Shown piece after piece: positions 43,319-59,764 of a stretch of 59,764 nt of DNA. Below the pieces are notes generated by a model. The model had not been told where the DNA came from. It searched no databases and was given only the letters and a program-made list of their open reading frames with translations. Each line of letters starts with the position of its first letter. Within the stretch, counting starts at the first letter, position 1. The DNA is from a virus (taxonomy: Duplodnaviria; Caudoviricetes). The stretch is taken from the IMG/VR virus record IMGVR_UViG_3300017971_004765, positions 1-59,764 of that record; one strand, given 5' to 3'. A program made the translations under genes and the position numbers.

Positions 43319-43329
43319 AAAAACACCTC

Positions 43330-44352: not shown

Positions 44353-44375
44353 CTATAAGTATATATACGTCATCC

Positions 44376-44390
44376 TTTATAAACCTTTCG
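44376..44390 (-). promoter_or_regulatory. BRE-TATA promoter for the glycan island
   Basis: CGAAAGGTTTATAAA just after the terL stop. Confidence 0.65.
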
Positions 44391-44393
44391 GTT

Positions 44394-46374: not shown

Positions 46375-46537
46375 TACGATTTGCCCCCAGGGAGCTGGAT
46401 TTAATTAGCAAAGCTATAACTGAACCATAGTCAGGGCAGCCCTCTACAAACTTTATGTGTTTTATCTGGTTATATGTGCCCTCGGTTACGGTTATGTGCC
46501 GTGTCTTCTTCTCCGAGAGCGGCTTCTTTGGGCGCAT
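46367..46537 (-). CDS. Small RHH-type DNA-binding protein
   Basis: Hand-translated MRPKKPLSEKKTRHITVTEGTYNQIKHIK...DYGSVIALLI. Confidence 0.55.
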   Translation of the reverse strand: MRPKKPLSEKKTRHITVTEGTYNQIKHIKFVEGCPDYGSVIALLIKSSSLGANRNG

Positions 46538-46589
46538 AGAAAAGAATAAGTCGCGTGACTTAAAAAGATTTCTATTAATTAATTAAAAT

Positions 46590-46878
46590 TGCAGATCCAC
46601 TGGCGCAGAGGGGGTATGCTTCTAGAAAGCCCCCGGACGAGTCTGCTGCGGTCACGCGCGATAGGCCCGCTGTATGCGGTGGGAGTCGAACCCACAAGCC
46701 ACCAGAGACCGCTTCGGACTCCATCTGTTTCGCCGGATTCCTTTGAATATTCTTCCCGAGGGGCGGGACTCGCTGGTTAGGCTGTCCCGAATTCCCGATG
46801 CCTCGGGTTCTCCCCTCGGGGCGGGTACCACCCGCGCATATTATTTACGCACCATTGACCAACTCGAGGCCAATGGGC
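46590..46878 (-). ncRNA. Unknown structured ncRNA with tRNA-like domain (46673-46840)
   Basis: Own promoter; no credible ORF; TATGCG/CGCATA stem, GGG-TGGTA-CCC hairpin, T-arm GTGGG-TTCGACT-CCCAC; T-rich 3' end. Confidence 0.7.
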
Positions 46879-46900
46879 ACATATACTATGTACTTCATCA

Positions 46901-46915
46901 CTTATAAATGTTTCG
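46901..46915 (-). promoter_or_regulatory. BRE-TATA promoter of the ncRNA
   Basis: CGAAACATTTATAAG. Confidence 0.8.
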
Positions 46916-46919
46916 TTTT

Positions 46920-47033
46920 TTAGCGGCGATTACTGCCTCTTCCAGTGCTACGCGTAGTCTTACATCCGCCTCGACCACGATTAGCCCTCTGGCCCTTGCC
47001 GCTGCCGTCGCGCTTGGGGACTCCCTTAGCCAT
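46920..47033 (-). CDS. Small basic DUF5320-like peptide
   Basis: MAKGVPKRDGSGKGQRANRGRGGC. Confidence 0.5.
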   Translation of the reverse strand: MAKGVPKRDGSGKGQRANRGRGGCKTTRSTGRGSNRR

Positions 47034-47223
47034 AGAAGCCACGCCCCCTAGCAAAGCGCCCCCTGCCGCGACCAAAGCCGCGCCCGCGCCTGCGACCCAT
47101 ACCCCTGCCATATACAGGGATATTTTCTGGGGCAACAAACGGAGTGTCAAGCCTATACAGACCAAGACCGCGCCCCGTCAATGGGCCGCCGCCATCTGGT
47201 CCCGTACCATCAAATCCTGGCAT
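47026..47223 (-). CDS. DUF5320-family Gly/Arg-rich protein
   Basis: MPGFDGTGPDGGGPLTGRGLG...GRGMGRRRGRGFG; SD GGAGGTG; promoter at 47271-47284. Confidence 0.75.
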   Translation of the reverse strand: MPGFDGTGPDGGGPLTGRGLGLYRLDTPFVAPENIPVYGRGMGRRRGRGFGRGRGRFARGRGFYG

Positions 47224-47269
47224 TGAGCAACACCTCCTTAATGTACATATGAATAATAGTCGCCCGTCA

Positions 47270-47906
47270 CTAATAAATGTTTCGGTTAACGTTCTCCCCG
47301 TTGAACAACAAATCCAGTATGGGGCGCTCATCACTATAGTCAGCGTCTATGGTCTCTATATCTAACCCATCAAGGAAGTCGGCGTTACCATATAACTCGT
47401 GACCCTGCCCCACAATATATCCAGTGGCGCCAACATTGAGAAGAATTTCCCGTATCAATTCTTCGCCACCCGCGCCGCTGAGCTTCAAACCAGAAGAAAA
47501 TACGCACTTGGTGTCAATATCCATATTAAATCTAATAAAATCTATCAGGCACATATTCATATTTAGCAGGAGCTTCCAATTCTGCTCCAGGTAAGACAAA
47601 ACAAACTTCTTGCGACCAAGGTATATATCCTTAATGTCGGAATACAAGTAGTCAACCCTCTTGCGAGCCTTCTTCTTCCAACGATCATCCAGCGCCACTT
47701 CAACCTCCCTTATGGGGCGCCTATCAGACTTGCGGACCAAGGGGACCGTGAGCCACTCCCCATCAGCCATCCTGGTCCTGTGGGTCCACCGCTGCGGGGA
47801 ATGCTGAATGTGGTCTAAAAAAACAAATAAGTCGGCATCCACCATCTTCTGGAAATAGGGAACCCATGGCAAGAAGTTAGGGCTGGTGAATCGCTACGAG
47901 AGTCAC
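47270..47906 (-). CDS. WbqC-family protein with a 1-bp frameshift at 47880-47882
   Basis: GTG at 47906 gives MTLVAIHQP*; the shifted frame continues NFLPWVPYFQKM..ADLFVFLD..Q..RTR..WLTVP. Confidence 0.8.
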
Positions 47907-48316
47907 CGGGCATCACCTCGAAGATATTTTATTGCGCTATACAATATTTCTTCATCATTCATAAAGTTACCCAAACCTAGATTACAATGCGAACACAACA
48001 ATCCACGTATTTCCCCAGTTCTATGGTTATGATCTATATGAAGAAAGTTGTTTTTAGTTGTATCTTCTTTTCCACATATTGCGCATACGCCGCCTTGCTC
48101 TCGCAAAATATCATTGTAAATCTCTGACGTAATACCATAAAGACTCTTTAAATCTTTTGCACGATACTTCTCTGGATACTTTTTTCTATCATTGCGCATC
48201 CATTCCCGTTTACAAGCTTTGCAAGTTCCTTGAAACCCGCGCCCTCTTTTACATTTTGGGAACTCTGAAACAAGTTTCACTACGCCACATCTGTTGCACT
48301 CATATGTTTTCTTCAC
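47903..48316 (-). CDS. Endonuclease VII-like HNH nuclease with N-terminal Zn ribbon
   Basis: QGGVCAICG...HIDHNHRTGEIRGLLCSHCNLGLG. Confidence 0.9.
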   Translation of the reverse strand: MKKTYECNRCGVVKLVSEFPKCKRGRGFQGTCKACKREWMRNDRKKYPEKYRAKDLKSLYGITSEIYNDILREQGGVCAICGKEDTTKNNFLHIDHNHRTGEIRGLLCSHCNLGLGNFMNDEEILYSAIKYLRGDAR

Positions 48317-48504
48317 TTCAATTCCCCTGGCGCTGGGTAGCCGTGCTTCCAGCGCACTCGCACAGAATCACTGAGATTAGAAGTATACGTCTCGGTCGAG
48401 GTATGCGCCTTAAGGCAGCGCTTGCAATAAACCTGCCACCTCGCTATAACCTCGCCGCAACCCATACAGTAAGCCCACTCGTGACCGCACTTAGGACACT
48501 TCAT
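48313..48504 (-). CDS. Small Zn-finger protein
   Basis: CPKC, CMGC, CKRC. Confidence 0.55.
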   Translation of the reverse strand: MKCPKCGHEWAYCMGCGEVIARWQVYCKRCLKAHTSTETYTSNLSDSVRVRWKHGYPAPGELK

Positions 48505-49245
48505 CTAGAAAACCAACATCTCGAGGCAAACAGGATTCTGGTAACTCTTGTCAGCCTTGTAAGACTTTCTCCACCTGGATTCAGCAAGATATGATTCTAT
48601 ATCTAGATCATACGTTTTCTCGCTAACTATCTCATCAAAAAAGTCTCCCTCGTATACCCAGAACTCTGGGTGAACCAACAACATAACTCGCTGAGACGCC
48701 CAATTAAGCATCAAGTCAGCGTCAAAAGGATCCCACAACATACAGGAATCAGAAACGTATAGCATATTTTCGTCCCTGGCTATACGGTAAGCATTACCAT
48801 CCAAATCGTTTAGGGGATCATCGGTAATAGAAGGATTATGAGGAGATATAGACCAGACACCATCATCAATAATTTTATCTAGGATCTTTATCTGATCTTT
48901 TAGAAACCCTTCTCCAAGAGTGCCAACTGCAATTGGGTCATAGTGAACACCAACATCGTGACCATAATCACTAATAGATTGTATCAACTCTATGTTGCCG
49001 AACTCGAGCGGGTTATACCAGGGGGAAGAAAAAGACACCAAGTAAGAAGACCTGATACCGAGGCGCGACTCAACATAAGCCATATGTTCGGCGGCCTTCA
49101 AGCAAAAATCAATGTCGTGCCTGAGGACCAAGTATGGGCACTCTACCTCATCATACTCCCACATATTAGTTATATTATATTTGCACCCCAGGTGTTTTAA
49201 CAGGGCGCGATACGTGTCCATATCGAAATCGTCTAGTCTTGACAT
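48505..49245 (-). CDS. Polysaccharide deacetylase-like protein
   Basis: LRHDID...E..LGIRSSY...GHDVGVHYD...HNP...YVSDS...LLVHPEFW. Confidence 0.75.
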   Translation of the reverse strand: MSRLDDFDMDTYRALLKHLGCKYNITNMWEYDEVECPYLVLRHDIDFCLKAAEHMAYVESRLGIRSSYLVSFSSPWYNPLEFGNIELIQSISDYGHDVGVHYDPIAVGTLGEGFLKDQIKILDKIIDDGVWSISPHNPSITDDPLNDLDGNAYRIARDENMLYVSDSCMLWDPFDADLMLNWASQRVMLLVHPEFWVYEGDFFDEIVSEKTYDLDIESYLAESRWRKSYKADKSYQNPVCLEMLVF

Positions 49246-50013
49246 ACTTGCTCATCCACCGGGACAGTTATGGTAATCATACCGTACCCCTCTTTTATCT
49301 TGCCCCTCAGCCATATAGACATATCCTTGAACCCATTAATCCTGGCGTCTTCTTCAGCCACAACCACTGAGTTCCAGCCCCGCTTATGCTTATACTTTAT
49401 GGCGCGGCACAGGAACCTCATACGTAGTCCCTCTTCTCCAGGTCGCTGAAAGGCCCCTTGTTGCCGGTCGCCTGCTGGAACATAACGGTAGCCAGGGTAG
49501 CCAGCTTCTCCGGGGGATCCCCAGCGAACTGCGAAGTAACCATAACCTTACCATTAGAGTTCTGCATAAAAATAACGCGCCCAGGGGCAGCCCCCTGCTG
49601 CTGGATAATTTCCTTCTCCTTGACAATGTTGGGCTTCTCTTCTTTCTTTTCGTTATCCTCTTCCTTCTTTACATCTTTATCCGTTTTCACTTACAAATAG
49701 CCTCCTTGAATAGATTGCCATCATTGTAAACAAGCCTCTGGTGCATCTTTTCCAGACCAAGATCCTCCATCTCGCCGCCGCAGCGCAGCAAAACTTTAAT
49801 GTCGCGCTCCACAGAATAAGAGTCTTCTAATTCATCAGGCAAATCAGAACCAATCTTGAGAGACTTTGTTAGCCTTGGTTGAGTCTCGTAAATACATAGC
49901 CACAAATCCTGCTCAGCTAGCTGATTCAGAATCTCATCCCATATAATGCGCTCCTCTACGGCAGCAAGCTTCTTATACGTATCGCCAACAGTAGCAGACA
50001 AATCCTTCATCAC
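49233..50013 (-). CDS. Three small hypothetical proteins (49233-49421, 49418-49690, 49687-50013)
   Basis: ATGA/GTGA-coupled ORFs. Confidence 0.5.
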
Positions 50014-50861
50014 ATATACCCCAGGTGTCTCAACTTCTGCATCGCATTCTCCGACTCCTTATCCTGCGCCCGCCCCGAGCGCTCCTCAACCCTGCTTGAC
50101 TTCAACTCCTCGATGATATCGTCGATGGTGGCGGCCTCGCTCGCCACAGGAGACGTACAAGGATAACATCCCAGGGAGCGATAGCGGCGCCCCATGTCAG
50201 AGAAATATAGCGGGCACACGGGCAGCCCCCTGTCGCGGGTGTACTCCCATATCTCAAGCTCGGACCAGTGCAGCAGCGGGTGGACGCGAACGTGGTCCAT
50301 GCCCGGTCCAAAGTCGGACTCGAATAGGGACCATCCCTCAAGCTCCATATCAGTGTTAAGCACAATCCCCTTGGACTCTACTGCCTCGGGGTTATGCTTA
50401 TACGGAACCCAGAAGCCCTCCCTGGTGCGCGGCGACATTATATGCTCCTTGCCCCTGACACCGTGCTCGTCCCTGCGGATGCCAACGACCAGGGCGTCAT
50501 AGTGCTCCAGCGCCAACAATTGTTTCAGCGCCTCCGTCTTGAGGGCGGTACAGCACTCGAAGCGCCCATAGTCGGGGCACATATCGTTAGCCATAGCTTC
50601 CAGGTTGCGCGCCACCTTCAAATTCAGCCCCCACTTAAGGGTCAGGGCCTCGCGGAAGGCATACATCTCTGGGAACTTGTAGCCAGTGTTAATATGGATA
50701 ACATCGAAAGGAATCTGACCAAAGAAAGCCTCGCGGCACAGGGACAGCATTGCCACCGAGTCCTTGCCGAATGACGCCAGCAAGCCCACCTTCTTGAACT
50801 GGGAGTAGGTCTCGCGCAGAATGTATACGCTCTTGTCAACGAGGGGTTCGATGTCCATCAT
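50010..50861 (-). CDS. cysD: Sulfate adenylyltransferase subunit 2 (PAPS-reductase superfamily)
   Basis: SFGKDS, HINTGYKFPEM, GIRRDE, RVHPLLHW, RYRSLGCYPCT, ERSGRAQDKE...LGYM. Confidence 0.85.
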   Translation of the reverse strand: MMDIEPLVDKSVYILRETYSQFKKVGLLASFGKDSVAMLSLCREAFFGQIPFDVIHINTGYKFPEMYAFREALTLKWGLNLKVARNLEAMANDMCPDYGRFECCTALKTEALKQLLALEHYDALVVGIRRDEHGVRGKEHIMSPRTREGFWVPYKHNPEAVESKGIVLNTDMELEGWSLFESDFGPGMDHVRVHPLLHWSELEIWEYTRDRGLPVCPLYFSDMGRRYRSLGCYPCTSPVASEAATIDDIIEELKSSRVEERSGRAQDKESENAMQKLRHLGYM

Positions 50862-51131
50862 AAATCAACCAAACAACGAAAAGTATAAGCCCAATAATGC
50901 GCTGCCAAAACACAAACCGAAACCCGTAGTTACCAAACCATCCATATCAAATGAGGTTCCAAGAATCATTAGCGCCAAGCCAAGAATTGGTACAAACAGG
51001 TATACGCTATCGTCGGTCATCTAAATCCCCTGCTAGCTTTTATTCCAAGCCAGAACAACAAAACATAATTTATGACCAGCCACTGCCCCATCAACATAGT
51101 TAGTAATAAGTTTTGTGTATCACTCAACATA

Positions 51132-51842
51132 TTAACCAAAATCCTTCGTCTTCAACTTGATTACCAGCGGCTTGCCGTTGCGCCGCAGCAGCAGCGGCTC
51201 CGTGCGCGCCACGATACCCTCAGCCATGCGCTCACCGTCGCCCTCCTCCATAGAGACGAATGACGGGAAACCCTGGCGCACAAGCTCCACGATGCCGCCC
51301 AAGCCCGTCTTGTAGCCCCACACGGGGACCGCCTTTATATCTAGCTGGGCAGCAATATCCTCCACGGAACTCCTCTCGAGCCACCAGTTGCCCACCAGAA
51401 CGTCGAACAGCCGGAAACTGGGGACCGAGGAATACGCGCCGCCCCCATTGATCTTCGGACCATAGCTCTCACCGAATAGGACAACTGGACCATCCATATC
51501 AGGGAACGCGGCTGCAAGCTTATCAACCGTGAACACCTTATCGAACAGATCGACCAAACCGAGCCTCTCAAACATACTGGGGTCAGTCTTGTCGGTCCTG
51601 CCCCCATAAAATACTGTGGGACCGATTACCTCAGTGGCGCAGCCACCCTCCATACAGTTGGGCTCAAAAATAATTCTAGTGTTCGTGCCATCAATCTTCT
51701 CGGTGACCGTCCACCTGCGAATCAGGGCGGCTTCCTTGAGGCGCAAGTGGTCCTCGTCAGGGATAACTTTGAAGTCATCACCCCTGTTGTATAGGGTGTC
51801 TATTTTAGGATACTTTGGGTACACGGGCGGAGCCATATTCAT
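51132..51842 (-). CDS. RNA ligase (Rnl2-like nucleotidyltransferase domain)
   Basis: YPKI, TEKIDGTN, LFGE, FRLFDV, EGIV, KLK. Confidence 0.85.
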   Translation of the reverse strand: MNMAPPVYPKYPKIDTLYNRGDDFKVIPDEDHLRLKEAALIRRWTVTEKIDGTNTRIIFEPNCMEGGCATEVIGPTVFYGGRTDKTDPSMFERLGLVDLFDKVFTVDKLAAAFPDMDGPVVLFGESYGPKINGGGAYSSVPSFRLFDVLVGNWWLERSSVEDIAAQLDIKAVPVWGYKTGLGGIVELVRQGFPSFVSMEEGDGERMAEGIVARTEPLLLRRNGKPLVIKLKTKDFG

Positions 51843-51854
51843 AGAATAAACCCC

Positions 51855-54115
51855 CTAACCAAAAAATCGGTATCCACAACTCCTACAAAACTTGTCGCCA
51901 ATGTGGACAGCGCCCTTGCCACACAGGTAACATTTAACTTTGGCGTCCCTCAAGTGAGAGCCGCACGCATAACAATACTTATCCCTAGTAGGACGCATCT
52001 CCTCGCAACACGTACAATACTTAGAAAACATATCCTTCATACCAATCTCCTGGAACATATCAAGACCTCAAAACCATAATTAGCCCCGCGCCAAAACCAA
52101 CAAAAATCATAGATGCGAATGGGACCACGGCAAACAGGGGGGCGCCAGCGTTAACCATAGAAACAGAAATGGCAGCAACAATAAAAAGAAGCACTCCAGC
52201 TATACAGGAAACCATAATGCGCATAAGCAAAAGATCAATGTCCATATTACTCGCCGCCCTCAATTATACTATCAAGAGCCTTCTTAATAGTCCACCCATC
52301 AACATCGAAGCCCACACTCAGCGACACCATAGACTCATCCGAAAAGTATATCTCCTCGAGCCCCTTCCGAACATCTATCTGCTTAGCCAGCAACCCAACA
52401 TATTTGTCAACGTCGCCAGGGGCATAGCGAGCCGCCCTCTCTATGGCTTCCCCCAGGTGCTGCTCCAGCCCCAGGGAGTGCTTGATGGCGCAACGCATAC
52501 AATGCGGGAACCACGGCTCCTGGGGCATCACTAATCATCCTCCTCCAATTCGTCCAGGAAAAAGGAGACGGCGTAAGTAAGAAGCACAAAACATATACCA
52601 ATCGCAAAAAATGTGGCGTATTCAGGATGCGCCCTAAGAAGCTCCACAATGCCCATAGTGCCCAAAATCAAAGCGGCAGAAATAAAGCCGCCAATGGCTA
52701 GGTTACGCAGCATCATTGAAAAACATCTCTTCCAGAATTACACCAAAAAATAGAGTCAACACAAATATAAAGATACCAATAACAAACCAGGGAATAAAAT
52801 CAGGATGGTTCTTAAGAAATACAATCAAGGAAACAAAACCAGTCACCAAGGCCACAGCTAGAATTAAACCAGCAACGTAGTGGATCGCGCCCACTTCAGG
52901 CGCCCTCCATAGCGGAGAGGGCGGCGCGCGCCCTGTCGAGCCCCACCTTGTAGCCGTCGCGCACATTCTCCCAGTATTCCAGGGCGGGAGAATTACCGGG
53001 CTCCACCTGGGATAGGCGCCCCAGGGAACGGTTATAATCTTCTACCCTATTAGCCACATCGCTCCTAATCAGCTTTACAATATACTCGTATTGCCCATCA
53101 GAAAGCTCAACAGAAACCATACAAAAACACCACAATACTATACGCGCCCAGAGTATATAAATGTTTCGTTTTGCGCATCCTCTAACCCGTGCTTATAGCC
53201 GTGTATGAAAGCCCGAATATAGTGGAACCTAATAGCCTCTATCATCTCGTCGCCCACATCGTGGACCCCCAGCAAGTCGGAAATATATGACCAGTGCTCC
53301 TCTGCCAGGGGCTCAGCTCTACTTGTTAAATTGGGCATAGGCAACAAGTCCCGATAATCTAGCTCTACTCCCCCCCTTATAGGGCAACAATGTAATGCGC
53401 CGCCGTAAACCTCCTGGCGGCAGAAGGGGCATAATCCTATAGGTTCCTGACTCATACATACATCACCAAATGGCTCCGCAAGTTCAGGTTCGTTTTCGCT
53501 CATTCAGCCAGCCTCCTTAAAGGCATCGCACTCTGCAATGAACATTGAATCCATATCCTCGTTCAGAAGGGTGCACCAAAGATCCCATTCTTCTCTATGA
53601 GCCAGCCACTTGGCATCCATGTGCTTACACTTCTCACACTTCCAATCAAAGACGCAGACCGCCTCCTCCATACAAGTTTCATCGTATCCAAAAATCACTC
53701 AGCCCGCCTCCTCCTTCCCCTTCTCATCGCAAGCCCAACATAAATTAAGGTCGCCGCGCTGCACGGTCATGTCGCCAGGGAAGAACGCAAAACAGCCATC
53801 GCACCAGATCATAAGGCAATTATCATCCATATTAAGGCGCTCGATAAGATCCTGCGTGAGCCTCTCCAAGGCCCGCAACCTAAATTCTACTTCAGACTCC
53901 TTCAATAAGCCGCCTCCCATCAATCACTCAGGGCGCCCCCTCTCTTCTGGCGAGTCTATAGTCATAGTGTAGCCGCAGTGCACGGGCCACCCATGCAATA
54001 TGCATTCCTTAGGGTCAACCCTCTCGCGATGCCCGCACTTGGTACACCAGACAATACCGCGCCGAAGCCTAGGGGTATTACGTATCCATTCATCTGCAAT
54101 CATACATGCACACAT
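51855..54115 (-). CDS. Run of about ten small hypothetical proteins, several Zn-finger (51855, 53504, 53699, 53924) or membrane (52060, 52531, 52703)
   Basis: Tightly coupled ORFs with CxxC pairs or hydrophobic segments. Confidence 0.55.
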
Positions 54116-54262
54116 AGGAACAATACGCGCCCATAGTATATAAATGTTTCGGTAGCCAGGGGGCTGGTGACAGGTGACTGGGGAAACTGAAAGTTATGTG
54201 CGCTGATGGGGCCACCCCTCCTCCTCAATGGGTATAGGTTCCTTTGGACTGGAGCCTTTGTC

Positions 54263-54353
54263 GAAGGCTGAAGGCTGAAGGTCGAAGGCTGAAGGCTGAA
54301 GGCTGAAGGCTGAAGGTCGAAGGCTGAAGGCTGAAGGCTGAAGGTCGAAAGCT
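54263..54353. repeat. Heptamer tandem repeat GAAGG(CT/TC), 13 copies
   Basis: Read directly; followed by an 11-bp inverted repeat at 54374-54403. Confidence 0.95.
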
Positions 54354-54428
54354 GAAGATGAAGAAAGAGAAAGAGGGGACCGGTTCCCCATTACCGGTCC
54401 CCTGATAGATGCCTAATAGATGCCAGTC

Positions 54429-54954
54429 TTACGCATAAGGTCTAAGCTCAGCCTTGATAGCTTGGTATGGCTTCCTGTGGGGAGCATATGTGTGAAAGAC
54501 TTCTTGGTCTACGGGGCACACATATACGTTCGGACCGGTCCGCATAAGTTCGTTCCCGTGCGTTGGGCAATACGCTATTCCCCAATTGAATGTTGGCCTC
54601 ACTTGCGATTCCTCCTCAGATTTCCCAAGGGTTTTCCGATAGAACGTCTCTTGCGAATTCCAGACTACATTCTTCGCAAAAACGTGCTTCCTCTTTTCCG
54701 CATTCGCAAAGAGACTTTCGGTGTTCGTCAATTGCTTGGGCTCTTATCTTGCCAGCTAGCATCAGCAGACCTTTCCTCTTTTCCCACGAGGTAGAATCTT
54801 CGAAGATTCTATCCCACACTTTCCATGCTTCGGGATTTTCAGGCTCTCTTGACCAATCCCAAAACGCCTTAGCGAATTCCTCTGCGCTTTCCCAATTGCT
54901 CCGTTTTGTGTTCATTTTCGTTTCCTGTCCCAAAAGGGGCGTTTTGTAGTACAT
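54429..54954 (-). CDS. Two overlapping hypothetical ORFs (54429-54731, 54616-54954)
   Basis: CPTH...CPVD Zn motif in the first; promoter variant at 54963. Confidence 0.4.
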
Positions 54955-55146
54955 AGCTATGCCTTATAAAGATTTCCTAAAATCAGACCAAATTCAATCA
55001 GAATATCACAACCTTAACGTTAAGGTATCGATAGGTTTTGATTAGATGATACTGACTGGTATTCAGTCACTGACTGAGAGTCAGTCAAAAAAAACCGACC
55101 AGTCGGTTTAGGCCCCCCAAAAAACGGCTATAAAAAAGCAGAGATT

Positions 55147-55231
55147 CCATCCATCCATCCATCCATCCATCCATCTATGCCATCTATACCCTGCCATCTA
55201 TACCGTGCCATCTATACCCTGCCATCTATAC
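55147..55231. repeat. (CCAT)7 followed by four 14-bp TGCCATCTATACC(C/G) units
   Basis: Read directly; the last unit is partial. Confidence 0.95.
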
Positions 55232-55255
55232 AGAAAAAAGAAAAATGGGCGCCTC

Positions 55256-55414
55256 TCAGCGCCCGCCGTAGAAAAGCCTTCTCTCCAGGCATGCCCTGCA
55301 CATACACCCAGGCGAGTGAGTGCTATCTGCCCAAGCCCTCGAAGGCTTAGCGGTCTGCGCTGGTTTCTTGCTCTTCTTGCTCTTCTCGATGGTTTCTCTC
55401 ACACGAGTCACCAC
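55256..55414 (-). CDS. Small basic protein with HxxxCxCxxC motif
   Basis: Hand-translated ...THSPGCMCRACLERRLFYGGR; between promoter 55431 and a T-run terminator. Confidence 0.5.
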   Translation of the reverse strand: MVTRVRETIEKSKKSKKPAQTAKPSRAWADSTHSPGCMCRACLERRLFYGGR

Positions 55415-55481
55415 TAACCCATTAGCGCCCGAGTATATAAATGTTTCGGTGGCGCTCGAGCCCCCGGCATTAGAAGAAGGT

Positions 55482-55594
55482 GGGGCGGTTGCCAGTTGAC
55501 CGGCAACTGTTCATCAGGGTTGGCAGACCCCTCTTACTCGAAGCCCGCTTCTTGGCGGATCTCCAAACCCGCCTCACGGGACCGCCCCGTTGCC
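55482..55594 (-). ncRNA. Candidate multi-hairpin small RNA A
   Basis: Promoter 55613; closing stem GGGGCGGT/ACCGCCCC; hairpins GGCGGGT/ATCCGCC and GTTGCCGG/CTGGCAAC. Confidence 0.55.
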
Positions 55595-55640
55595 AATATA
55601 GCTATGCAGCCCGAGTATATAAATGTTTCGTTTCCCCACG

Positions 55641-55774
55641 GGGCGGGGGCAGAAACCCAGGCAGGCACTTCTTCTCCTGCCCAGGCCCCCGGAACCCCAG
55701 GGGATAGTGCGAAGCGGTGGAGCAGCGCCCCAGTGAGCGAGTGCCCCCACCCGCTGTGTCGGCGCCCGCCTCAC
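55641..55774 (-). ncRNA. Candidate multi-hairpin small RNA B
   Basis: Promoter 55796; stem GGGTGGGGGCA/TGCCCCCGCCC enclosing three hairpins. Confidence 0.55.
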
Positions 55775-55816
55775 ACATATACTTATGCAACCGAAGCTTA
55801 TAAATGTTTCGGTTGT

Positions 55817-55886
55817 GTGGGCGCAATCGGTTAACCAGCAAAGTGCCCGGTTTCGGGTTATGCCGACCAGCGCCGACGCCACCCAC
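55817..55886 (-). ncRNA. 70-nt hairpin small RNA C, copy 1
   Basis: Promoter 55909; 65/70 identical to 56425-56494 with a compensatory stem change. Confidence 0.7.
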
Positions 55887-56069
55887 AATATAGTCATACG
55901 AGGCGCCCCTTATAAATGTTTCCCTCGGAGCCTCGAGTCAGCTAATTTAATCGGATTTGTCCTGACCCAGCAAAATTAGTTAGAACAGGGATTTGTCTCG
56001 AGCCAGATTTTTTACTCGTAATTGTCGCCAGCCCCCATAGCCAAAAAAATAGGGGCGATTTGTCGCCCC

Positions 56070-56357
56070 TCAGTATTCGCTCGGGAACAGGATCGTTGTG
56101 GCGCTCCTGTCCGCCTCGGTTATGATCCAGATCTTGGGTATGGGATACTTGCCCTCGTAGACGCTGAACAGGCGACCCTCGCCCTCGAGTGCCTCGTCAT
56201 TCAGGGCCTTGTCCTCGGGGCGCAAGTCGCCCCAGTCGCCCTTAGTGTGTCTCTCATAGCTCCCCACCACAAATCGGTAGAAGTCCATATCTTCCCACAT
56301 AAGGGCGTCCACGCCAGCCGTAGCCACCAGTTGCCCGATGTCAAACAACACACACAT
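56070..56357 (-). CDS. Conserved mobile-element protein (GDWG...WIITEADRS.TTILxPxEY type)
   Basis: RHTKGDWGD...ED...RLFSVY...WIITEADRSATTILFPSEY; SD GAGGTG. Confidence 0.7.
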   Translation of the reverse strand: MCVLFDIGQLVATAGVDALMWEDMDFYRFVVGSYERHTKGDWGDLRPEDKALNDEALEGEGRLFSVYEGKYPIPKIWIITEADRSATTILFPSEY

Positions 56358-56424
56358 CACCTCTACAAGTACATTGCACGCCACGCTTATAAATCTTTCG
56401 TTTCCTCGAGCCTCGAGAAAAAGT

Positions 56425-56494
56425 GTGAGCGCAATCGGTTAACCAGCAAAGTGCCCGTTACCGGGTTATGCCGACCAGCGCCGACGCCACTCAC
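56425..56494 (-). ncRNA. 70-nt hairpin small RNA C, copy 2
   Basis: Promoter 56514; followed by ACTTTTT. Confidence 0.7.
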
Positions 56495-56560
56495 GTATAA
56501 CACTATGCGCCTCGAGTATATAAATGTTTCGTTTCTGGCAAAAAAGAAAAAATTGGGGGA

Positions 56561-56760
56561 TTATTCCCCCTTAACTATGAGCAGTTGCCCACGCCCGAGC
56601 CCGAGCCCTACGCCAAACTTGGGGTAGCACCCCTCACACATAAACGCCCACGGCCCCATGCGAGTCCGCCCGTCAACTTCTGCGGGCTTCCCGCAAAAGT
56701 CGCATTTCGGGCGCTCGAGCACCTCAGCCGTCCGCAAATCCTTGGTTGTGGTCACGCCAT
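56561..56760 (-). CDS. Small Zn-finger phage protein (start approximate)
   Basis: CDFC...DGRTRMGPWAFMCEGC...GVGLGLGRGQ. Confidence 0.65.
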
Positions 56761-56831
56761 CACCGAATAGTAGTATGCAGCCCGAGTATATAAATGTTTC
56801 GTTTTGGGCAAAAAAAGAAAACGGGCGCCCC

Positions 56832-57014
56832 TCAGATGAGAGACGCCACCCGATATCGCTTCTCGCAGCCCTCACAAGTGACGACATAGTTGGCGTCAGG
56901 CTCAACCAGTCGCTCGCACCCGCAATGGGGGCACTCGACCTCCGCCACCGAGTCCCACGTCAGGGGCACGGTCACGGTTCGCAGATTTTCGGTTTCACGC
57001 ATCCGCATCACCAC
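56832..57014 (-). CDS. Zn-ribbon protein
   Basis: CPHCG...CEGC; own promoter and terminator. Confidence 0.65.
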   Translation of the reverse strand: MVMRMRETENLRTVTVPLTWDSVAEVECPHCGCERLVEPDANYVVTCEGCEKRYRVASLI

Positions 57015-57065
57015 CTTGTCCTTGGATTCAGAGTATATAAATGTTTCTGAAAAAAGAGGGGGCGG

Positions 57066-57272
57066 TCACGGGATATCCGTGACCTCAAACTTGACGATCT
57101 CGACGCTCTCCAGCTCGGGGACCACGCGCTCCCACGCCTCGGGGGGCATGTCGAACGCCTTGATGACAGCGGCACGCTCCGCCGCCTTGTCGTTCTCCGC
57201 CTCGACCTCGACGGTGACGGTTGCCACCGCCGGGGTCTCGAAGGTATACTTGTATGTTGCCACACAGGTCAC
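57066..57272 (-). CDS. Small acidic hypothetical protein
   Basis: VEVEAENDKAAERAA; own promoter. Confidence 0.6.
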   Translation of the reverse strand: MTCVATYKYTFETPAVATVTVEVEAENDKAAERAAVIKAFDMPPEAWERVVPELESVEIVKFEVTDIP

Positions 57273-57467
57273 CGAATATACCTACGCAGCCCGAGTATAT
57301 AAATGTTTCGGTTATGGTCACTTCTTGAATAGATCCTTAGCCAACAGAATGAGAATCAGAACAGAATGACCATATTCTGCTGAATCATATTCAAGAAGAA
57401 TTGCGCATCGCTCAGAGTCACGACATTCACCTCCTTTAACCTGTGCCAATACCGTAGTCATCGGTGT

Positions 57468-57596
57468 TTATAAATGTTTCGGTTTCCGGCCCCTCTTCTT
57501 GGGCGGGGCTCCCAGAATGAACGCCAGCGTCTCCGCCAGCACCAGCACCACCACCGCAACAATGGCGAGCCCAATATCAGCAAACTTGAAACGCAT
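57468..57596 (-). CDS. 42-aa single-TM peptide with basic tail
   Basis: SD AAGGAGGTG; MRFKFADIGLAIVAVVVLVLAETLAFILGAPPKKRGRK. Confidence 0.6.
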   Translation of the reverse strand: MRFKFADIGLAIVAVVVLVLAETLAFILGAPPKKRGRKPKHL

Positions 57597-57886
57597 CACC
57601 TCCTTGGTAAGGTATCGGCGGGCGACCTCACGGGGACGGGAAGCTTGACGAAAGCTTGGCCACCCGCCGACTGAATACCGTTGCGCACTCGAGTATATAA
57701 ATGTTTCCTTGGTGCCCACCGAAACATATTTAAGCAGGGATGCTAATAGGCTATGGATCCTTTTTTTCTTTTTAGGTGAGAAATGTGTTTGTTAGAAGAA
57801 TAGGAGAATTCATCGGATTCGCAGCGTGTCTAACTATGGCTTTAACCATTTTTGCGGGCACAGTTATAGTTTTATTATTGAGGTAT

Positions 57887-58117
57887 TCAGTCATCACACT
57901 CACCTTTTATGAATTTAACAGCATCATCAGGGTTATCAAATAGAACGATGCTGCATACTGGACATTCATACTCATCCAATGCTGAATCAGAAGGTATGCT
58001 GTCTTCTTTCTTAAATCCTAGTTCACCGTTTTTATCTAAACCAACGTAATATACAACCAATTCATTGGTATAATTTACCAGATGTGTTATCTCTTCACCA
58101 CACACGGGACACTTCAC
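57887..58117 (-). CDS. Zn-ribbon protein
   Basis: CPVC twice. Confidence 0.65.
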   Translation of the reverse strand: MKCPVCGEEITHLVNYTNELVVYYVGLDKNGELGFKKEDSIPSDSALDEYECPVCSIVLFDNPDDAVKFIKGECDD

Positions 58118-58275
58118 TTCAAGTTGCCTCCTAGCAATGATAATCTACCGTAATCAGGTATCCTCCCTCTATATAACCGCTATGTCGCACAACCACAATA
58201 CCGCCCACGCCTCGGGCGGGAAACGACTCTTGGGTTTCACCGCCCAACTCACGGGCTCCGCCTTCTTGTAGCGCC

Positions 58276-58473
58276 TCATATCAGTCCCACCTCTTTCGCC
58301 AGCTCGATCCGCCTCTTCACCCGCTCGAGTTCTGGGTTATACTCCTCCTCGGGGTATTCCTCGTAAAGCTCCCAGCACTCGGGGCAGCGCCACGAGCGCC
58401 CACCCAAGAACTGCAGATCAGCGCCGCACTTGACGCAGACCTCCACGCCGAAGCCATCACGCACCAGCTTCAT
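58276..58473 (-). CDS. Zn-ribbon protein, probably leaderless
   Basis: CVKC...CPEC; ATG about 20 nt from promoter 58493. Confidence 0.65.
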   Translation of the reverse strand: MKLVRDGFGVEVCVKCGADLQFLGGRSWRCPECWELYEEYPEEEYNPELERVKRRIELAKEVGLI

Positions 58474-58578
58474 AAGATACCCCTTACAGGCAGAGTATAT
58501 AAATGTTTCGTTCGACCCACAAAAGAAAAGATGGGGGCTCGAGTCCTATTAGCGCTGGTTGTTAACTCCACTTAACGT

Positions 58579-59202
58579 TCAATCCAAGTCTTCGATCTGA
58601 TCTCTGATCACATCTAAATCCTTCACCGATTCTATCTTCTCGCTCGCTAGGTCAGTAAAGACCTGCTTTACTGGCTCCCGCAATCGTTTTGGCACGACCC
58701 AAACATAGTCGGGTAAAAAATATCCGCTGACATGCATATAGTTCCGCATATGCTCAAACGCGCGAATCATTCTGTGAGCATTGGTTGCCTTCTCTATTGG
58801 TCGTGTTCGGATTGCCGTTTCAATCTCACGCTCACATTCTCTGTGCGCCATAGAATTGTAACGATACTCATCCCAGTTTGCTTGGAGTGCATCGCATGAT
58901 GGCCACGCTGATCTTGACGCAGAACTACATATCTCTCCCATAAGACGCATCTGTTGAGGTCCGTAGCCAGTAAAGTTCGCAATCGAATACGAGGGGTCAT
59001 CCCGCGAGAATTTGCGTTCCGTCCGTTGCGCAATCTTGCAAAACGTGACAAGACTTTCACGAAGCACGGGTTTGCATTCGTCTGGCTCACGTTCACCTGT
59101 CTGTGCTTCTAGGATGCACCTTGTACCGTCAACTATGTCAAGCAGGTTCTTCTTGACCTTTTCGGGTCGCATAACCATCTGGTTGTTAACACCTCTTAAC
59201 AT
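58579..59202 (-). CDS. Hypothetical protein
   Basis: 207-aa ORF. Confidence 0.6.
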   Translation of the reverse strand: MLRGVNNQMVMRPEKVKKNLLDIVDGTRCILEAQTGEREPDECKPVLRESLVTFCKIAQRTERKFSRDDPSYSIANFTGYGPQQMRLMGEICSSASRSAWPSCDALQANWDEYRYNSMAHRECEREIETAIRTRPIEKATNAHRMIRAFEHMRNYMHVSGYFLPDYVWVVPKRLREPVKQVFTDLASEKIESVKDLDVIRDQIEDLD

Positions 59203-59412
59203 TCAGACGAATCCGTAGTTCTCGACCTCGACAAATACCCCGTCATATGTTACCTCACCGTTGAGTATCCGCCCTTGGTCTCGGTAGGCAGCCGCCGCCG
59301 CCTCCTCCTCAGCTCGGGCGATCTCCGCCTCAATCTCCTCGACCAGCTCCCGGTCGAGCTGCTCCTCGATTTCCGACTCAGCTACATCTCCATAGTCCAT
59401 GTCAGTCACCAC
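59203..59412 (-). CDS. Small acidic protein
   Basis: Very Glu-rich; own promoter. Confidence 0.6.
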   Translation of the reverse strand: MVTDMDYGDVAESEIEEQLDRELVEEIEAEIARAEEEAAAAAYRDQGRILNGEVTYDGVFVEVENYGFV

Positions 59413-59433
59413 ATACTACTACGCAGGCGCCCC

Positions 59434-59640
59434 TTATAAATCTTTCGGTTCGCCCGCCCACCAAGAATCGTCTCTCCGATCCTCCGCCTCGAGTTCGGTG
59501 AGTATCACATAGCGCTCCCACGCCCGATCAGCCGCCCACCTCATCTTGGGGCGGGAGTCCATTGGGTTCGGGCCGTCTATGTAGTAGTCGTCACTCGAGC
59601 AGTGCTCCAACCCATAAGTCAGCTCGTCCATGTCAGTCAC
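59434..59640 (-). CDS. Small acidic protein
   Basis: Own promoter; shares the MTDMD start with 59203-59412. Confidence 0.6.
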   Translation of the reverse strand: MTDMDELTYGLEHCSSDDYYIDGPNPMDSRPKMRWAADRAWERYVILTELEAEDRRDDSWWAGEPKDL

Positions 59641-59764
59641 CGAATAGTAGTATGCAGGCGGAGTATATAAATGTTTCGTTTCCGGGAAAAAATAAAGAGG
59701 GGCGGATTAGAAATGTACCTCGTATCTTCCAACCCGCCCGTCGCCGTACTTGAGAACAACCCGC

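What the first reader, a model, noticed from the sequence alone, without database searches (positions are those of the whole stretch)
53151..59678. Cassette array: one strong promoter per micro-gene
Seen: about 17 copies of CGAAACATTTATA, often 110-300 bp apart; the typical unit is promoter, tiny acidic or Zn-finger ORF or RNA, then a GC-rich stretch plus T-run (for example TGAGGGGCGCCCGTTTTCTTTTTT). Known: archaeal viral anti-defence genes tend to be small, early and driven by consensus promoters. Inference: a host-takeover and anti-defence array in which promoter repeats also serve as recombination points and may titrate host TBP/TFB.
Basis: partly seen in the sequence, partly recalled or inferred. 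Interest (0 to 1): 0.75.

Follow-up and report, generated by a model that had tools for sequence, protein, structure and literature searches.

The report
Early promoter array in archaeal virus
One end of this uncultivated tailed virus fragment carries 16 copies of a near-perfect archaeal promoter, each driving a tiny gene or a small folded RNA, an arrangement already described in other archaeal viruses as a probable early host-takeover or anti-defence region.

Summary
CGAAACATTTATA occurs 16 times (11 exact, 5 with one mismatch) on the minus strand between 53156 and 59678. Across the window there are 23 matches at two mismatches or fewer, against 1.76 expected.

The motif matches an archaeal BRE plus TATA box. 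In 9 of 12 coding units a start codon lies 20-27 nt after it, which fits leaderless mRNAs. Four units are non-coding. Two of these are copies of a 70-nt hairpin RNA that differ by one compensatory pair and three loop bases.

The window is a 59.8-kb fragment of a tailed virus from sediment metagenomes, with a genome of at least 92 kb. The archaeal host is inferred only from promoter geometry.

The architecture is already known: conserved strong-promoter early regulons in Sulfolobales viruses, HF2 intergenic repeats, and the HGTV-1 motif. In HGTV-1 I found the same core 36 times and the same 24-nt spacing.

Not shown here: anti-defence function, recombination at the repeats, and TBP/TFB titration. 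No close relatives or RNA data could be obtained.

Array unitigs have 1.5-2x the depth of the rest, which could mean a terminal repeat.

Verdict: a real feature and a new member of a known kind. The RNA cassettes are its most original part.

The parts
59666..59678 (-). Promoter P1 (BRE+TATA, exact 13-mer, class TTTATATACTC)
59434..59640 (-). U1: 68-aa acidic ORF (pI 4.2). GTG lies 25 nt after the motif. Its stop codon lies inside the TATA box of P2.
   Evidence: (coding score 0.377)
59435..59447 (-). Promoter P2 (1 mismatch, class TTTATAAG)
59203..59412 (-). U2a: 69-aa very acidic ORF (net charge -17). Shares the promoter-proximal block and first codons (MTDMD) with U1.
   Evidence: (D6)
58579..59202 (-). 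U2b: 207-aa ORF with lower GC and no promoter of its own. Flanked by a 26-44 nt direct repeat (59179-59222 / 58555-58598). Only 7 relatives among 1.84 billion representatives.
   Evidence: (D13)
58498..58510 (-). Promoter P3 (exact)
58276..58473 (-). U3a: 65-aa ORF with two CxxC pairs (Zn-ribbon-like). ATG lies 24 nt after the motif.
57772..58117 (-). U3c/U3d: 76-aa Zn-ribbon-like ORF and 43-aa ORF in an AT-rich insert (GC 0.37-0.38) without a consensus promoter
57696..57708 (-). Promoter P4 (1 mismatch). A weak divergent copy lies at 57720-57732 on the plus strand.
   Evidence: I2
57468..57671 (-). U4: structured leader of about 96 nt (fold z-score -3.9) with a GGAGGTG Shine-Dalgarno, then a 42-aa hydrophobic, basic-tailed peptide. 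Its stop codon lies in the TATA box of P5.
   Evidence: Coding score ambiguous.
57469..57481 (-). Promoter P5 (exact, class TTTATAA)
57356..57421 (-). U5: possible 21-aa ORF behind a GGAGGTG Shine-Dalgarno, or non-coding
   Evidence: ambiguous
57298..57310 (-). Promoter P6 (exact)
57066..57272 (-). U6: 68-aa acidic ORF. GTG lies 25 nt after the motif. Followed by a T6 run.
   Evidence: (0.303)
57036..57048 (-). Promoter P7 (1 mismatch)
56824..57014 (-). U7: 60-aa ORF with two CxxC pairs, then a hairpin plus T-run terminator (56847-56824)
   Evidence: Coding score ambiguous (-0.017).
56789..56801 (-). Promoter P8 (exact)
56555..56755 (-). U8: 64-aa Zn-finger ORF (phrog_23287, E=4.9e-13; homologues in Arthrobacter and Gordonia phages), then a terminator at 56570-56555
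56519..56531 (-). Promoter P9 (exact)
56425..56494 (-). RNA-A copy 2: 70-nt rod-like hairpin that starts at the predicted +1 and is followed by T5
   Evidence: -31.7 kcal/mol, z -2.84; D8; non-coding
56388..56400 (-). Promoter P10 (1 mismatch, class TTTATAAG)
56051..56357 (-). U10: 95-aa acidic ORF of a very large unnamed family, then a hairpin plus T7 terminator (56070-56051)
55911..55923 (-). Promoter P11 (1 mismatch, class TTTATAAG)
55814..55886 (-). RNA-A copy 1: same hairpin as copy 2 (93% identical). All 5 differences keep the structure.
   Evidence: (D8)
55799..55811 (-). Promoter P12 (exact, class TTTATAAG)
55634..55774 (-). RNA-B: GC-rich non-coding stretch of about 140 nt with a stable fold
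   Evidence: (-81.3 kcal/mol, z -2.86)
55618..55630 (-). Promoter P13 (exact)
55452..55593 (-). RNA-C: non-coding stretch of about 140 nt whose fold is no better than shuffles
   Evidence: (z -0.22)
55436..55448 (-). Promoter P14 (exact)
55247..55414 (-). U14: 52-aa basic ORF (pI 10.4), then a hairpin plus T-run terminator (55264-55247)
54429..54954 (-). Two lower-GC ORFs (112 and 100 aa) behind a weaker BRE/TATA-like site near 54983. They lie between tandem-repeat blocks.
54139..54151 (-). Promoter P15 (exact)
53138..54115 (-). U15a-d: four abutting ORFs (63, 74, 64 and 121 aa; Cys-rich or acidic). The last runs through promoter P16.
53156..53168 (-). Promoter P16 (exact). It heads a longer run of small genes leading to the RNA ligase at 51132-51842.

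Best explanation
This is the upstream, probably immediate-early, accessory region of an uncultivated tailed virus whose host is most likely an archaeon in marine or sediment habitats.

Sixteen copies of an almost invariant BRE (CGAAA) plus TATA box (TTTATATA or TTTATAAG) recruit host TBP, TFB and RNA polymerase without any viral factor. Transcription would start about 24 nt after the 13-mer, at a conserved GTG(A).
- In 9 of 12 coding units that position coincides with the start codon, giving leaderless mRNAs.
- In 3 of the 4 non-coding units it is the first base of the putative RNA; in the two RNA-A copies that base opens the hairpin.
- About half of the units end at an oligo-T tract, with or without a hairpin. 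These units are largely independent, mono- or oligocistronic and strongly expressed.

The products are acidic or Zn-ribbon-like micro-proteins, one hydrophobic peptide, and at least two kinds of structured RNA.

By analogy with SIRV2-type early regulons, the HGTV-1 end region and the SPO1 host-takeover module, their likely role is host takeover or counter-defence.

Shown: motif count and clustering, strand bias, geometry relative to start codons, coding versus non-coding calls, and the mosaic make-up.
Inferred: promoter activity, timing of expression, and the function of the products.
For: 1. Enrichment and clustering. There are 23 matches against 1.76 expected. Sixteen lie in 6.5 kb on one strand, and only 4 further minus-strand copies lie in the other 53 kb.

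2. Conservation pattern. Information content peaks over AAACGAAACATTTATATACTC. Downstream come a GC-rich spacer, an AT-rich block and G at the presumed +1. The TATA box equals the TTTAWATA consensus quoted for strong archaeal viral early promoters (PMC11065993, section 6).

3. Geometry. Potential start codons that open the coding ORF lie 20-27 nt after the 13-mer in U1, U2a, U3a, U6, U7, U10, U14, U15a and U16. U8 is at 33 nt. U4 and U5 instead have GGAGGTG Shine-Dalgarno leaders.

4. The same core in bona fide archaeal DNA.
- HGTV-1 has 36 near-matches against 1 for the reversed control.
- In HGTV-1, 25 of 40 end-region ORFs have a BRE/TATA-like 11-mer that ends 18-30 nt before the start codon, with a mode of 24-25.
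- Metagenome contig L182 carries the motif 7 times beside a TFB gene (452 bits, cut-off 384).
- Thermus phage P23-45 has 0 matches.

5. Sigma-70-like sites are not enriched: 11 found against 5.8 +/- 2.8 expected. Three of the 11 merely reuse TTTATA as the first hexamer.

6. Coding test. Of 60-codon in-frame chunks of the large genes, 98% score above 0.05, against 1.5% of off-frame chunks. U1, U2a, U3a, U3c, U6, U8, U10, U14, U15a-d and U16 pass. The units at 56531, 55923, 55811 and 55630 fail in every frame.

7. RNA-A. The two copies differ at 5 of 70 positions: one G-C to A-U double change, plus 3 bases in the apical loop. All 25 pairs are kept. Only 1.7% of random sets of 5 substitutions achieve this.

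8. Not an assembly chimera. Array proteins, portal, capsid and RNA ligase are all recorded on contigs of 92179 and 91851 bp.
Against: - No transcript data. No RNA run holds the sequence, so no start site was observed.
- No protein in the window is archaea-specific.
- The nearest terminase relatives are Thermus phages at 35% identity.
- Two array proteins have their relatives in bacterial phages and bacteria.
- The haloarchaeal virus HCTV-1 has 0 matches, so the motif is not universal among archaeal viruses.
- GTG is a weak start codon for leaderless mRNAs (my own knowledge, not tested here).
- No micro-ORF matches a known anti-defence family.
- No HTH or RHH regulator of the Aca type was found among the 20 array proteins scanned with Pfam.
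- Only 6 of 16 promoters have a T-run close upstream, so many units may read through into the next.
Confidence: 0.7

Rival explanations
1. The repeats are kept mainly as recombination scaffolds, like the PeSL promoter-terminator cassettes of T4-type phages. Homologous exchange between 40-70-nt terminator-promoter blocks would shuffle, duplicate and delete small accessory genes. This is compatible with the promoter explanation and is probably an added role.
For: - The conserved block extends well beyond the core: 39 nt in 14 copies, and 68 nt in 4 copies at 68-87% identity, including the upstream T-run (D1 and D4).
- The RNA-A cassette is duplicated 608 nt apart (D8).
- U1 and U2a share the promoter plus their first five codons (D6).
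- There are low-GC inserts at 57.7-58.15 kb, 54.7-55.15 kb and the 207-aa gene.
- A direct repeat flanks the 207-aa gene (D13).
- The same idea was proposed for HGTV-1 (PMC3950731, passage read) and shown for T4-type phages (PMC2839356 and PMC4122927, abstracts read).
Against: - No relative with a different cassette content could be obtained.
- The near-identical strains in two runs and in the 92-kb contigs differ from the window only by one SNP and one 14-nt repeat copy.
- The joints in the laid contigs have sides of 21-23 nt, which is within what the repeats themselves produce.
Confidence: 0.3
2. The array acts as a sponge that titrates host TBP and TFB away from host promoters.
For: There are 16 or more near-consensus BRE/TATA sites in 6.5 kb. 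Their number would multiply as the genome replicates. This is inference only.
Against: - Nothing in the data speaks for it.
- Every unit has a plausible product placed precisely at the start site, which a pure decoy would not need.
- A dozen sites per genome are few compared with the promoters of a host cell (my own knowledge).
Confidence: 0.05
3. The virus infects a bacterium, and the repeat is a promoter for a bacterial sigma factor or for a phage-encoded RNA polymerase.
For: - The nearest terminase is in Thermus phages.
- U8 and U10 have relatives in bacterial phages and bacteria.
- No archaeal hallmark protein is present.
Against: - The invariant part would lie at about -37 to -25 relative to the start codon. 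The region where a -10 box would sit varies between units.
- Sigma-70-like sites are not enriched.
- A start site placed right after the motif would give leaders of about 20 nt without a Shine-Dalgarno.
- Thermus phage P23-45 has 0 matches, while archaeal HGTV-1 has 36 with the same spacing.
- No RNA polymerase gene is present in the window, although about 32 kb of the genome is unseen.
Confidence: 0.07
4. The array belongs to a different element and was joined to the virus by misassembly at the 7-mer tandem repeat near 54.3 kb.
For: - Unitig depth steps from 11.7 (45000-54292) to 17.8-23.7 (54320-59764) in run X1, and from 11.2 to 16.1-19.6 in run X2.
- The array genes are more GC-rich than the rest.
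Against: - The same promoter, including the TATACTC extension, occurs on the low-depth side at 54151 and 53168. The core also occurs at 46915 and 47284.
- Array proteins and structural proteins are recorded on contigs of the same lengths, 92179 and 91851 bp.
Confidence: 0.03

Closest known systems
Conserved strong-promoter early or anti-defence regulons of Sulfolobales viruses (SIRV2 and others; Bhoobalan-Chitty et al. 2024, PMC11065993; sections 6, 7 and 11 read)
   Same: - Small, mostly single, unannotated genes clustered near a genome end.
- Each is preceded by the same BRE plus TTTAWATA promoter embedded in a longer shared regulatory sequence.
- The proteins themselves are unrelated to each other.
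   Different: - The host lineage and the virus type differ: here a tailed virus from sediment, there rod-shaped, filamentous and spindle viruses of hot springs.
- No Aca8-like regulator and no homologue of a known archaeal Acr was found.
- Four units here are non-coding RNAs, which that study does not describe (a term search of the paper for 'RNA gene' and 'non-coding' gave 0 hits).
- Early timing and anti-defence activity are untested here.
Conserved TATA-containing motif before most ORFs on one side of the haloarchaeal myovirus HGTV-1 (Sencilo et al. 2013, as cited in PMC3950731; only the passage in the 2014 review was read, the 2013 paper is not held)
   Same: - A tailed archaeal virus.
- In the last 16.9 kb of the record, 40 small minus-strand ORFs; 25 of the 40 have a BRE/TATA-like 11-mer that ends 18-30 nt before the start, with a mode of 24-25.
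- The same CGAAA..TTTATA-type core: 36 near-matches against 1 for the control.
   Different: - No detectable sequence relationship between the viruses.
- HGTV-1 units carry a second upstream GGTATATAAA-like element that is absent here.
- The HGTV-1 host is an extreme halophile. Here the median pI of the large proteins is 5.2.
- RNA cassettes are not annotated in that HGTV-1 region.
Intergenic repeats of halovirus HF2 (Russ et al. 2021, PMC8707807; abstract and section 3.1 read)
   Same: Repeated intergenic sequences in an archaeal tailed virus that carry promoters. For HF2, promoter activity was shown with a reporter.
   Different: - HF2 has 7 class I repeats (58 bp) and 2 class II repeats (29 bp) spread over the genome, heading very long transcripts.
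- Here 16 copies head micro-units within 6.5 kb.
PeSL promoter-terminator cassettes of T4-type phages (PMC2839356 and PMC4122927; abstracts read)
   Same: Composite terminator plus strong early promoter, repeated between small non-essential ORFs in a plastic region.
   Different: - PeSLs use bacterial sigma-70 promoters.
- Their role in recombination was shown by comparing close relatives and by detecting mini-circles. Neither test could be done here.
Host-takeover module in the terminal redundancy of Bacillus phage SPO1 (PMC10531801; abstract and introduction passages read)
   Same: - A cluster of about two dozen small genes of mostly unknown function at the genome end.
- A possible link to a terminal repeat: the array here has 1.5-2x unitig depth.
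   Different: - SPO1 is a bacterial phage.
- The terminal repeat here is only a possibility.
- That SPO1 uses one strong promoter per small operon is recalled from memory, not from a passage I read.

Membership tests
Archaeal viral early/anti-defence regulon (criteria of PMC11065993) | Predicted strong promoter: purine-rich BRE followed by a TTTAWATA TATA box | tested here: met
   16 copies of CGAAACATTTATA. Ten continue as TTTATATACTC.
Archaeal viral early/anti-defence regulon (criteria of PMC11065993) | A shared regulatory sequence around the promoter within the same genome | tested here: met
   A 39-nt block in 14 copies (62-100% identity to the reference copy) and a 68-nt block in 4 copies. 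The downstream GC-rich, AT-rich and GTG pattern is also shared.
Archaeal viral early/anti-defence regulon (criteria of PMC11065993) | Small single genes without annotation | tested here: met
   20 array proteins were scanned with Pfam and none reached a curated cut-off. Ten were scanned with PHROGs and one had a clear match, to a family of unknown function. Units 2, 3 and 15 hold 2-4 genes.
Archaeal viral early/anti-defence regulon (criteria of PMC11065993) | Transcription immediately after infection | not testable with these tools
   No RNA holder is listed.
Archaeal viral early/anti-defence regulon (criteria of PMC11065993) | At least one member inhibits a defence system or is homologous to a known inhibitor | tested here: not met
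   The best match was AcrIC5 at E=0.17. The U10 fold has no PDB match at E<=0.001. Activity itself cannot be tested here. The paper's Supplementary Data 1, which lists the ADG families, could not be seen.
PeSL-type mobile regulatory cassette | Composite element: terminator directly followed by a strong early promoter | tested here: inconclusive
   Six of 16 promoters have a T-run within 45 nt upstream. Six minus-strand hairpin-plus-T sites follow array genes. Other units lack any terminator.
PeSL-type mobile regulatory cassette | Insertions and deletions between close relatives are bounded by the repeats | not testable with these tools
   No informative relatives were found. The near-identical strains show none.
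Host-takeover module in a long terminal repeat (SPO1/T5 type) | The module lies in a direct terminal repeat | tested here: inconclusive
   Unitig depth is 1.5-2.0x that of the neighbouring 9 kb in two runs. The runs may be the source sample. Genome ends were not seen, and strain sharing would give the same signal.
Integron-like gene cassette array | Integrase and attC-type recombination sites | tested here: not met
   No integrase was found among the proteins scanned. The only repeats are promoter blocks and tandem repeats.
Known RNA families (Rfam 15) for the non-coding units | A score at or above the family's gathering threshold | tested here: not met
   No match at gathering thresholds. The best weak matches had E of 2.1-9.9. 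ARAGORN found no tRNA.

The most novel reading that the evidence does not exclude
Four of the sixteen immediate-early promoter units make structured non-coding RNAs rather than proteins. They include a duplicated 70-nt hairpin RNA that has been kept by compensatory change. These RNAs would be part of the virus's first-wave takeover or counter-defence arsenal, for example as decoys or mimics of host RNAs. In addition, the whole array may lie in a long terminal repeat, which would double its dosage, as in SPO1 or T5. That would be an RNA-based early strategy not yet described for archaeal tailed viruses.
Probability: 0.2. Interest if true: 0.75.

Novelty: new member of a known kind. Interest (0 to 1): 0.45.

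Why it matters
The array extends the 'one conserved strong promoter per small early gene' architecture from hot-spring and hypersaline archaeal viruses to an uncultivated tailed virus lineage from sediments. This lineage is rare: its portal has 3 relatives above 50% identity among 5.8 billion protein clusters.

It gives a short, defined list of candidates for archaeal host-takeover or anti-defence factors: 12 micro-proteins and up to 4 RNAs. One of these, the 95-aa U10 protein, belongs to a family with at least 5557 clusters in the protein collection and relatives on 353 IMG/VR stretches. That family has no Pfam model, and its confidently predicted fold has no match among solved structures.

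The promoter itself is a compact, near-ideal BRE/TATA/initiator unit that could be tested directly in archaeal reporter systems.

Tried and rejected
Searches for relatives that came back empty
- DNA search of the array against the phage collection: no match.
- Terminase, 207-aa protein and portal-alignment searches of IMG/VR: only distant hits at 26-33% identity, or none.
- Promoter 20-mer and RNA-A 21-mer in IMG/VR: 0 hits.
- Promoter 18-mer in metagenome contigs: 89 loci. None is related to the window by blastn, and tblastx gave only a trivial match.

No host search in named genomes was possible.
- The HGTV-1 primary paper is not held.
- Supplementary files were not consulted.

Expression
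- No RNA holder is listed for the sequence.

Laid contigs
- The joints 55231>59427 and 59449>59657 have sides of only 21-23 nt. I read them as alignments at the promoter repeats, not as deletions.

Host and function clues that led nowhere
- The ESM Atlas search with the terminase gave no host clue.
- Rfam: nothing at gathering thresholds. A full-length but 14.8-bit match of RNA-C to cold-seep-1 RNA (gathering score 125.8) runs across the next promoter, so I rejected it.
- RNA-A is not a tRNA (my manual parsing also failed at the anticodon and T arms).
- The RNAs have no antisense target longer than 12 nt in the window.
- U10: no PDB sequence match. The best fold matches are RelE/HigB-like at E about 0.2 and TM about 0.4, which is not significant.
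- Neighbours of U10 homologues in 80 viral loci: of 128 ORFs, 10 are DNA methylases, 6 are ssDNA-binding proteins and 5 are Bro-N proteins. This is too diffuse to assign a function.
- I considered an extreme-halophile host and rejected it: median pI is 5.2.

Full report
WHAT THE WINDOW IS

The window is a complete IMG/VR virus record of 59764 bp. It is linear, and CheckV estimates it as 35% complete. All sizeable ORFs lie on the minus strand. Reading that strand from 59764 downwards, the order is:
- the array (59.7-53.1 kb);
- more small genes;
- an RNA ligase, a PAPS-reductase-domain protein, an HNH-like protein and a WbqC-like protein (52-47 kb);
- the large terminase (45812-44394);
- a block of about 17 kb of sugar-modifying genes;
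- the portal (26738-25266), the HK97-type capsid, tail tube proteins and a 1416-aa tape measure.

No tRNA and no Rfam family was found. There is no DNA match in the phage collection.

The lineage is rare. The portal has three relatives at 55-59% identity, and the capsid has eight at 48-70%. All are on short unnamed metagenome contigs.

The identical portal, capsid, RNA ligase and array proteins are recorded on contigs of 92179 and 91851 bp. So the genome is at least 92 kb, and the array really belongs to this virus. Two coded DNA runs, one labelled a sediment metagenome and one a seawater metagenome, hold the sequence. No RNA run does.

THE OBSERVATION

CGAAACATTTATA has 23 matches at two mismatches or fewer, against 1.76 expected from shuffles. 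Sixteen minus-strand copies lie between 53156 and 59678: 11 exact and 5 with one mismatch. A weak plus-strand copy lies at 57720.

Only four more minus-strand copies occur in the remaining 53 kb: 47284, 46915, 44390 (just upstream of the terminase) and 2502.

The extended form TTTATATACTC occurs ten times, only in the array. A second class, TTTATAAG, is shared by four array promoters and by copies outside the array, including the one at 46915.

WHAT THE REPEAT IS

When the 16 units are aligned, information content peaks over AAACGAAACATTTATATACTC. Downstream come a GC-rich stretch, an AT-rich stretch and a conserved G, often as GTGA, 24-25 nt after the 13-mer. This is the layout of an archaeal core promoter: BRE, TATA box, an easily melted region and an initiator. 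The TATA box equals the TTTAWATA consensus reported for strong early promoters of archaeal viruses (PMC11065993, section 6).

Geometry relative to the ORFs:
- The start codon that opens the coding ORF lies 20-27 nt after the motif in nine coding units (U1, U2a, U3a, U6, U7, U10, U14, U15a, U16).
- It lies at 33 nt in U8.
- U4 and U5 instead have leaders with a GGAGGTG Shine-Dalgarno.

This fits mostly leaderless mRNAs.

Controls:
- Sigma-70-like sites are not enriched: 11 found against 5.8 +/- 2.8 expected.
- The position where a -10 box would sit varies between units.
- Thermus phage P23-45, the nearest terminase relative at 35% identity, has no match to the motif.
- The haloarchaeal myovirus HGTV-1 has 36 matches, against 1 for the reversed control.
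- HCTV-1, another haloarchaeal virus, has none, so the motif is not universal.

In the last 16.9 kb of the HGTV-1 record, 25 of 40 small ORFs have a BRE/TATA-like 11-mer that ends 18-30 nt before the start codon, mostly 24-25.

An unrelated metagenome contig, L182, carries the motif seven times beside a TFB gene. Another, L171, is a tailed virus with a psiM2-like terminase domain and uses the same promoter before ordinary genes.

I conclude that the repeats are archaeal promoters and that the host is an archaeon, with about 90% confidence. This rests on promoter logic alone. No protein in the window is archaea-specific. The host is not an extreme halophile, since the median pI is 5.2.

WHAT THE UNITS ENCODE

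I trained a codon-usage score on the 40 large genes of the window. It separates in-frame from off-frame 60-codon chunks well: 98% against 1.5% score above 0.05.
- Coding by this test: U1, U2a, U2b, U3a, U3c, U3d, U6, U8, U10, U14, U15a-d and U16.
- Ambiguous: U4, U5 and U7.
- Failing in every frame: the units at 56531, 55923, 55811 and 55630.

The proteins:
- acidic: U1, U2a with net charge -17, U6, U10, U15c and U15d;
- carrying two CxxC pairs: U3a, U3c, U7, U8 and U15b;
- one is a 42-aa hydrophobic peptide with a basic tail (U4);
- one is strongly basic (U14).

None reaches a curated Pfam or NCBIfam cut-off.

Two have relatives outside this lineage:
- U8 matches phrog_23287 (E=4.9e-13) and hypothetical proteins of Arthrobacter and Gordonia phages.
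- U10 belongs to a family with 5557 clusters at E<=0.001, found in bacteria, phages and sediment metagenomes, and has relatives on 353 IMG/VR stretches. The family has no Pfam model. Its predicted structure is confident (pLDDT 95.5), but no solved structure matches at E<=0.001. Neighbours of U10 homologues are mixed early or replication genes: of 128 ORFs, 10 are DNA methylases, 6 are ssDNA-binding proteins and 5 are Bro-N proteins.

The 207-aa U2b has only seven relatives among 1.84 billion representatives.

THE NON-CODING UNITS

Promoters P9 and P11 each drive a copy of the same sequence of about 70 nt (93% identical, D8).
- It starts at the predicted +1.
- It folds into one long irregular hairpin: -31.7 and -34.5 kcal/mol, z-scores -2.8 and -2.6.
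- Copy 2 is followed directly by T5.

The two copies differ at five positions. One is a G-C to A-U double change in the closing stem, and three are bases of the apical loop. All 25 pairs are kept, which only 1.7% of random sets of five substitutions achieve. Read as protein, the same differences would change four residues and leave none synonymous.

RNA-B (about 140 nt, GC-rich) also folds better than shuffles (z -2.9). RNA-C does not (z -0.2).

None matches Rfam, a tRNA model, or another part of the window in antisense. I regard RNA-A as a likely RNA gene, RNA-B as possible and RNA-C as open.

TERMINATION AND MOSAIC STRUCTURE

Six promoters have a T-run within 45 nt upstream. Six minus-strand hairpin-plus-T sites follow array genes. 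Elsewhere the next promoter overlaps the end of the preceding ORF, so read-through is likely.

The conserved block between units can reach 68 nt: T-run, promoter, initiator and first codons (D4 and D6).

GC content is 0.55-0.63 in the promoter-proximal micro-genes. It is 0.37-0.49 in three second-position segments: 57.7-58.15 kb, 54.7-55.15 kb and the 207-aa gene. The 207-aa gene is flanked by a direct repeat (D13).

These features fit gene gain by recombination, as proposed for PeSLs and for HGTV-1. However, no relatives with a different content were available, so that idea remains untested.

DEPTH

In contigs of both DNA runs, the unitigs that cover 54320-59764 have depth 17.8-23.7 (run X2: 16.1-19.6). 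The unitig that covers 45000-54292 has depth 11.7 (X2: 11.2). Unitigs break at the tandem repeats and at two promoter copies, and one ends exactly at 59764.

A direct terminal repeat, as in SPO1 where the host-takeover module lies in the 13,185-bp redundancy (PMC10531801), would explain this. So would two strains that share an identical early region. I could not tell the two apart.

COMPARISON WITH WHAT IS KNOWN, AND VERDICT

The architecture meets the two bioinformatic criteria of Bhoobalan-Chitty et al. 2024: a strong BRE/TATA promoter, and a shared surrounding sequence before small single genes. It closely parallels the HGTV-1 end region. HF2 intergenic repeats, T4 PeSLs and the SPO1 module are functional analogues.

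It is therefore a new member of a known kind, found in a new and rare virus lineage.

The promoter and micro-gene reading is supported. The anti-defence role is a reasonable analogy without direct evidence. Recombination at the repeats is circumstantial. TBP/TFB titration is unsupported.

The most original element is that a quarter of the units appear to make structured RNAs.

Limits on the evidence: the search of earlier findings, the look-up of encoding contigs and paper supplements were closed, and the genome-contig scan was lost to machine failures. These gaps limit host assignment and comparison with relatives.

Noticed in passing
window 54320-59764 versus 45000-54292: Unitig depth is 1.5-2.0 times higher over the array than over the adjoining 9 kb, in both DNA runs. 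One unitig ends exactly at the window end. Possible causes: a terminal repeat, or a region shared by co-occurring strains.
   Followed up: partly
window 55051-55231: An intergenic block with a 14-mer x3.9 (TGCCATCTATACCC), a TCCA x9.5 run and an 18-mer x2.1, next to an AT-rich stretch. The public contigs carry one more 14-mer copy at 55205. It looks like iterons, so it may be an origin of replication or a regulator-binding region.
   Followed up: no
window 54263-54357: A 7-mer (GAAGGCT) repeated 13.6 times in tandem, between a hairpin terminator and promoter P15. Assemblies break here.
   Followed up: no
window 59179-59222 and 58555-58598: A direct repeat of 26-44 nt (75% identical) brackets the 207-aa ORF exactly, as if the gene had been inserted or was once duplicated (D13).
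   Followed up: no
window 55953-56064, minus strand: Three copies of GACAAATC(C/G) lie within 112 nt of the ORF-free gap between the U10 terminator and promoter P11. Window-wide enrichment is weak: 21 matches against 12.9 expected at one mismatch. This may be a regulator-binding site.
   Followed up: partly
window 57468-57671: U4 is a 42-aa hydrophobic peptide with a basic tail. Its leader is about 96 nt long and strongly folded (z -3.9), and the predicted fold pairs the Shine-Dalgarno. This resembles small membrane toxins or holin-like peptides.
   Followed up: no
window 56070-56357 (U10) and alignment A3: A 95-aa family with at least 5557 clusters in bacteria, phages and sediments. It has 21 invariant columns among the 43 aligned members, no Pfam model, a confident predicted fold (pLDDT 95.5), and no solved structural relative.
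   Followed up: partly
window 27000-44400: About 17 kb of the viral fragment encodes sugar and cell-surface chemistry: glycosyltransferases, a UDP-GlcNAc 2-epimerase, a DegT aminotransferase, an NAD epimerase, a B12-radical SAM enzyme, a sulfatase, an ATP-grasp enzyme, methyltransferases and hexapeptide transferases. This is unusually large for a virus.
   Followed up: no
L182:3400-3760 and L182:6550-6710 (metagenome contig): An unrelated archaeal contig has a TFB gene (4099-5040) flanked by tandem stacks of the same BRE/TATA motif. One stack has about 110-nt spacing (4 copies) and the other 70-nt spacing (3 copies), with GC-rich or tiny units between the copies.
   Followed up: partly
L218:8100-10300 (metagenome contig): Another unrelated contig shows a promoter before each small gene, with the same core motif and start codons about 27-30 nt downstream.
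   Followed up: no
L085 (IMG/VR contig of 196 kb, GC 0.20): 14 near-matches to the 13-mer (one mismatch or fewer) in 11.7 kb of a very AT-rich viral contig. Its nature was not examined.
   Followed up: no
window 57720-57732, plus strand: A weak divergent copy of the motif lies back to back with promoter P4. A T-run on the plus strand follows about 40 nt further on. This could be a short antisense transcript or a bidirectional element.
   Followed up: no
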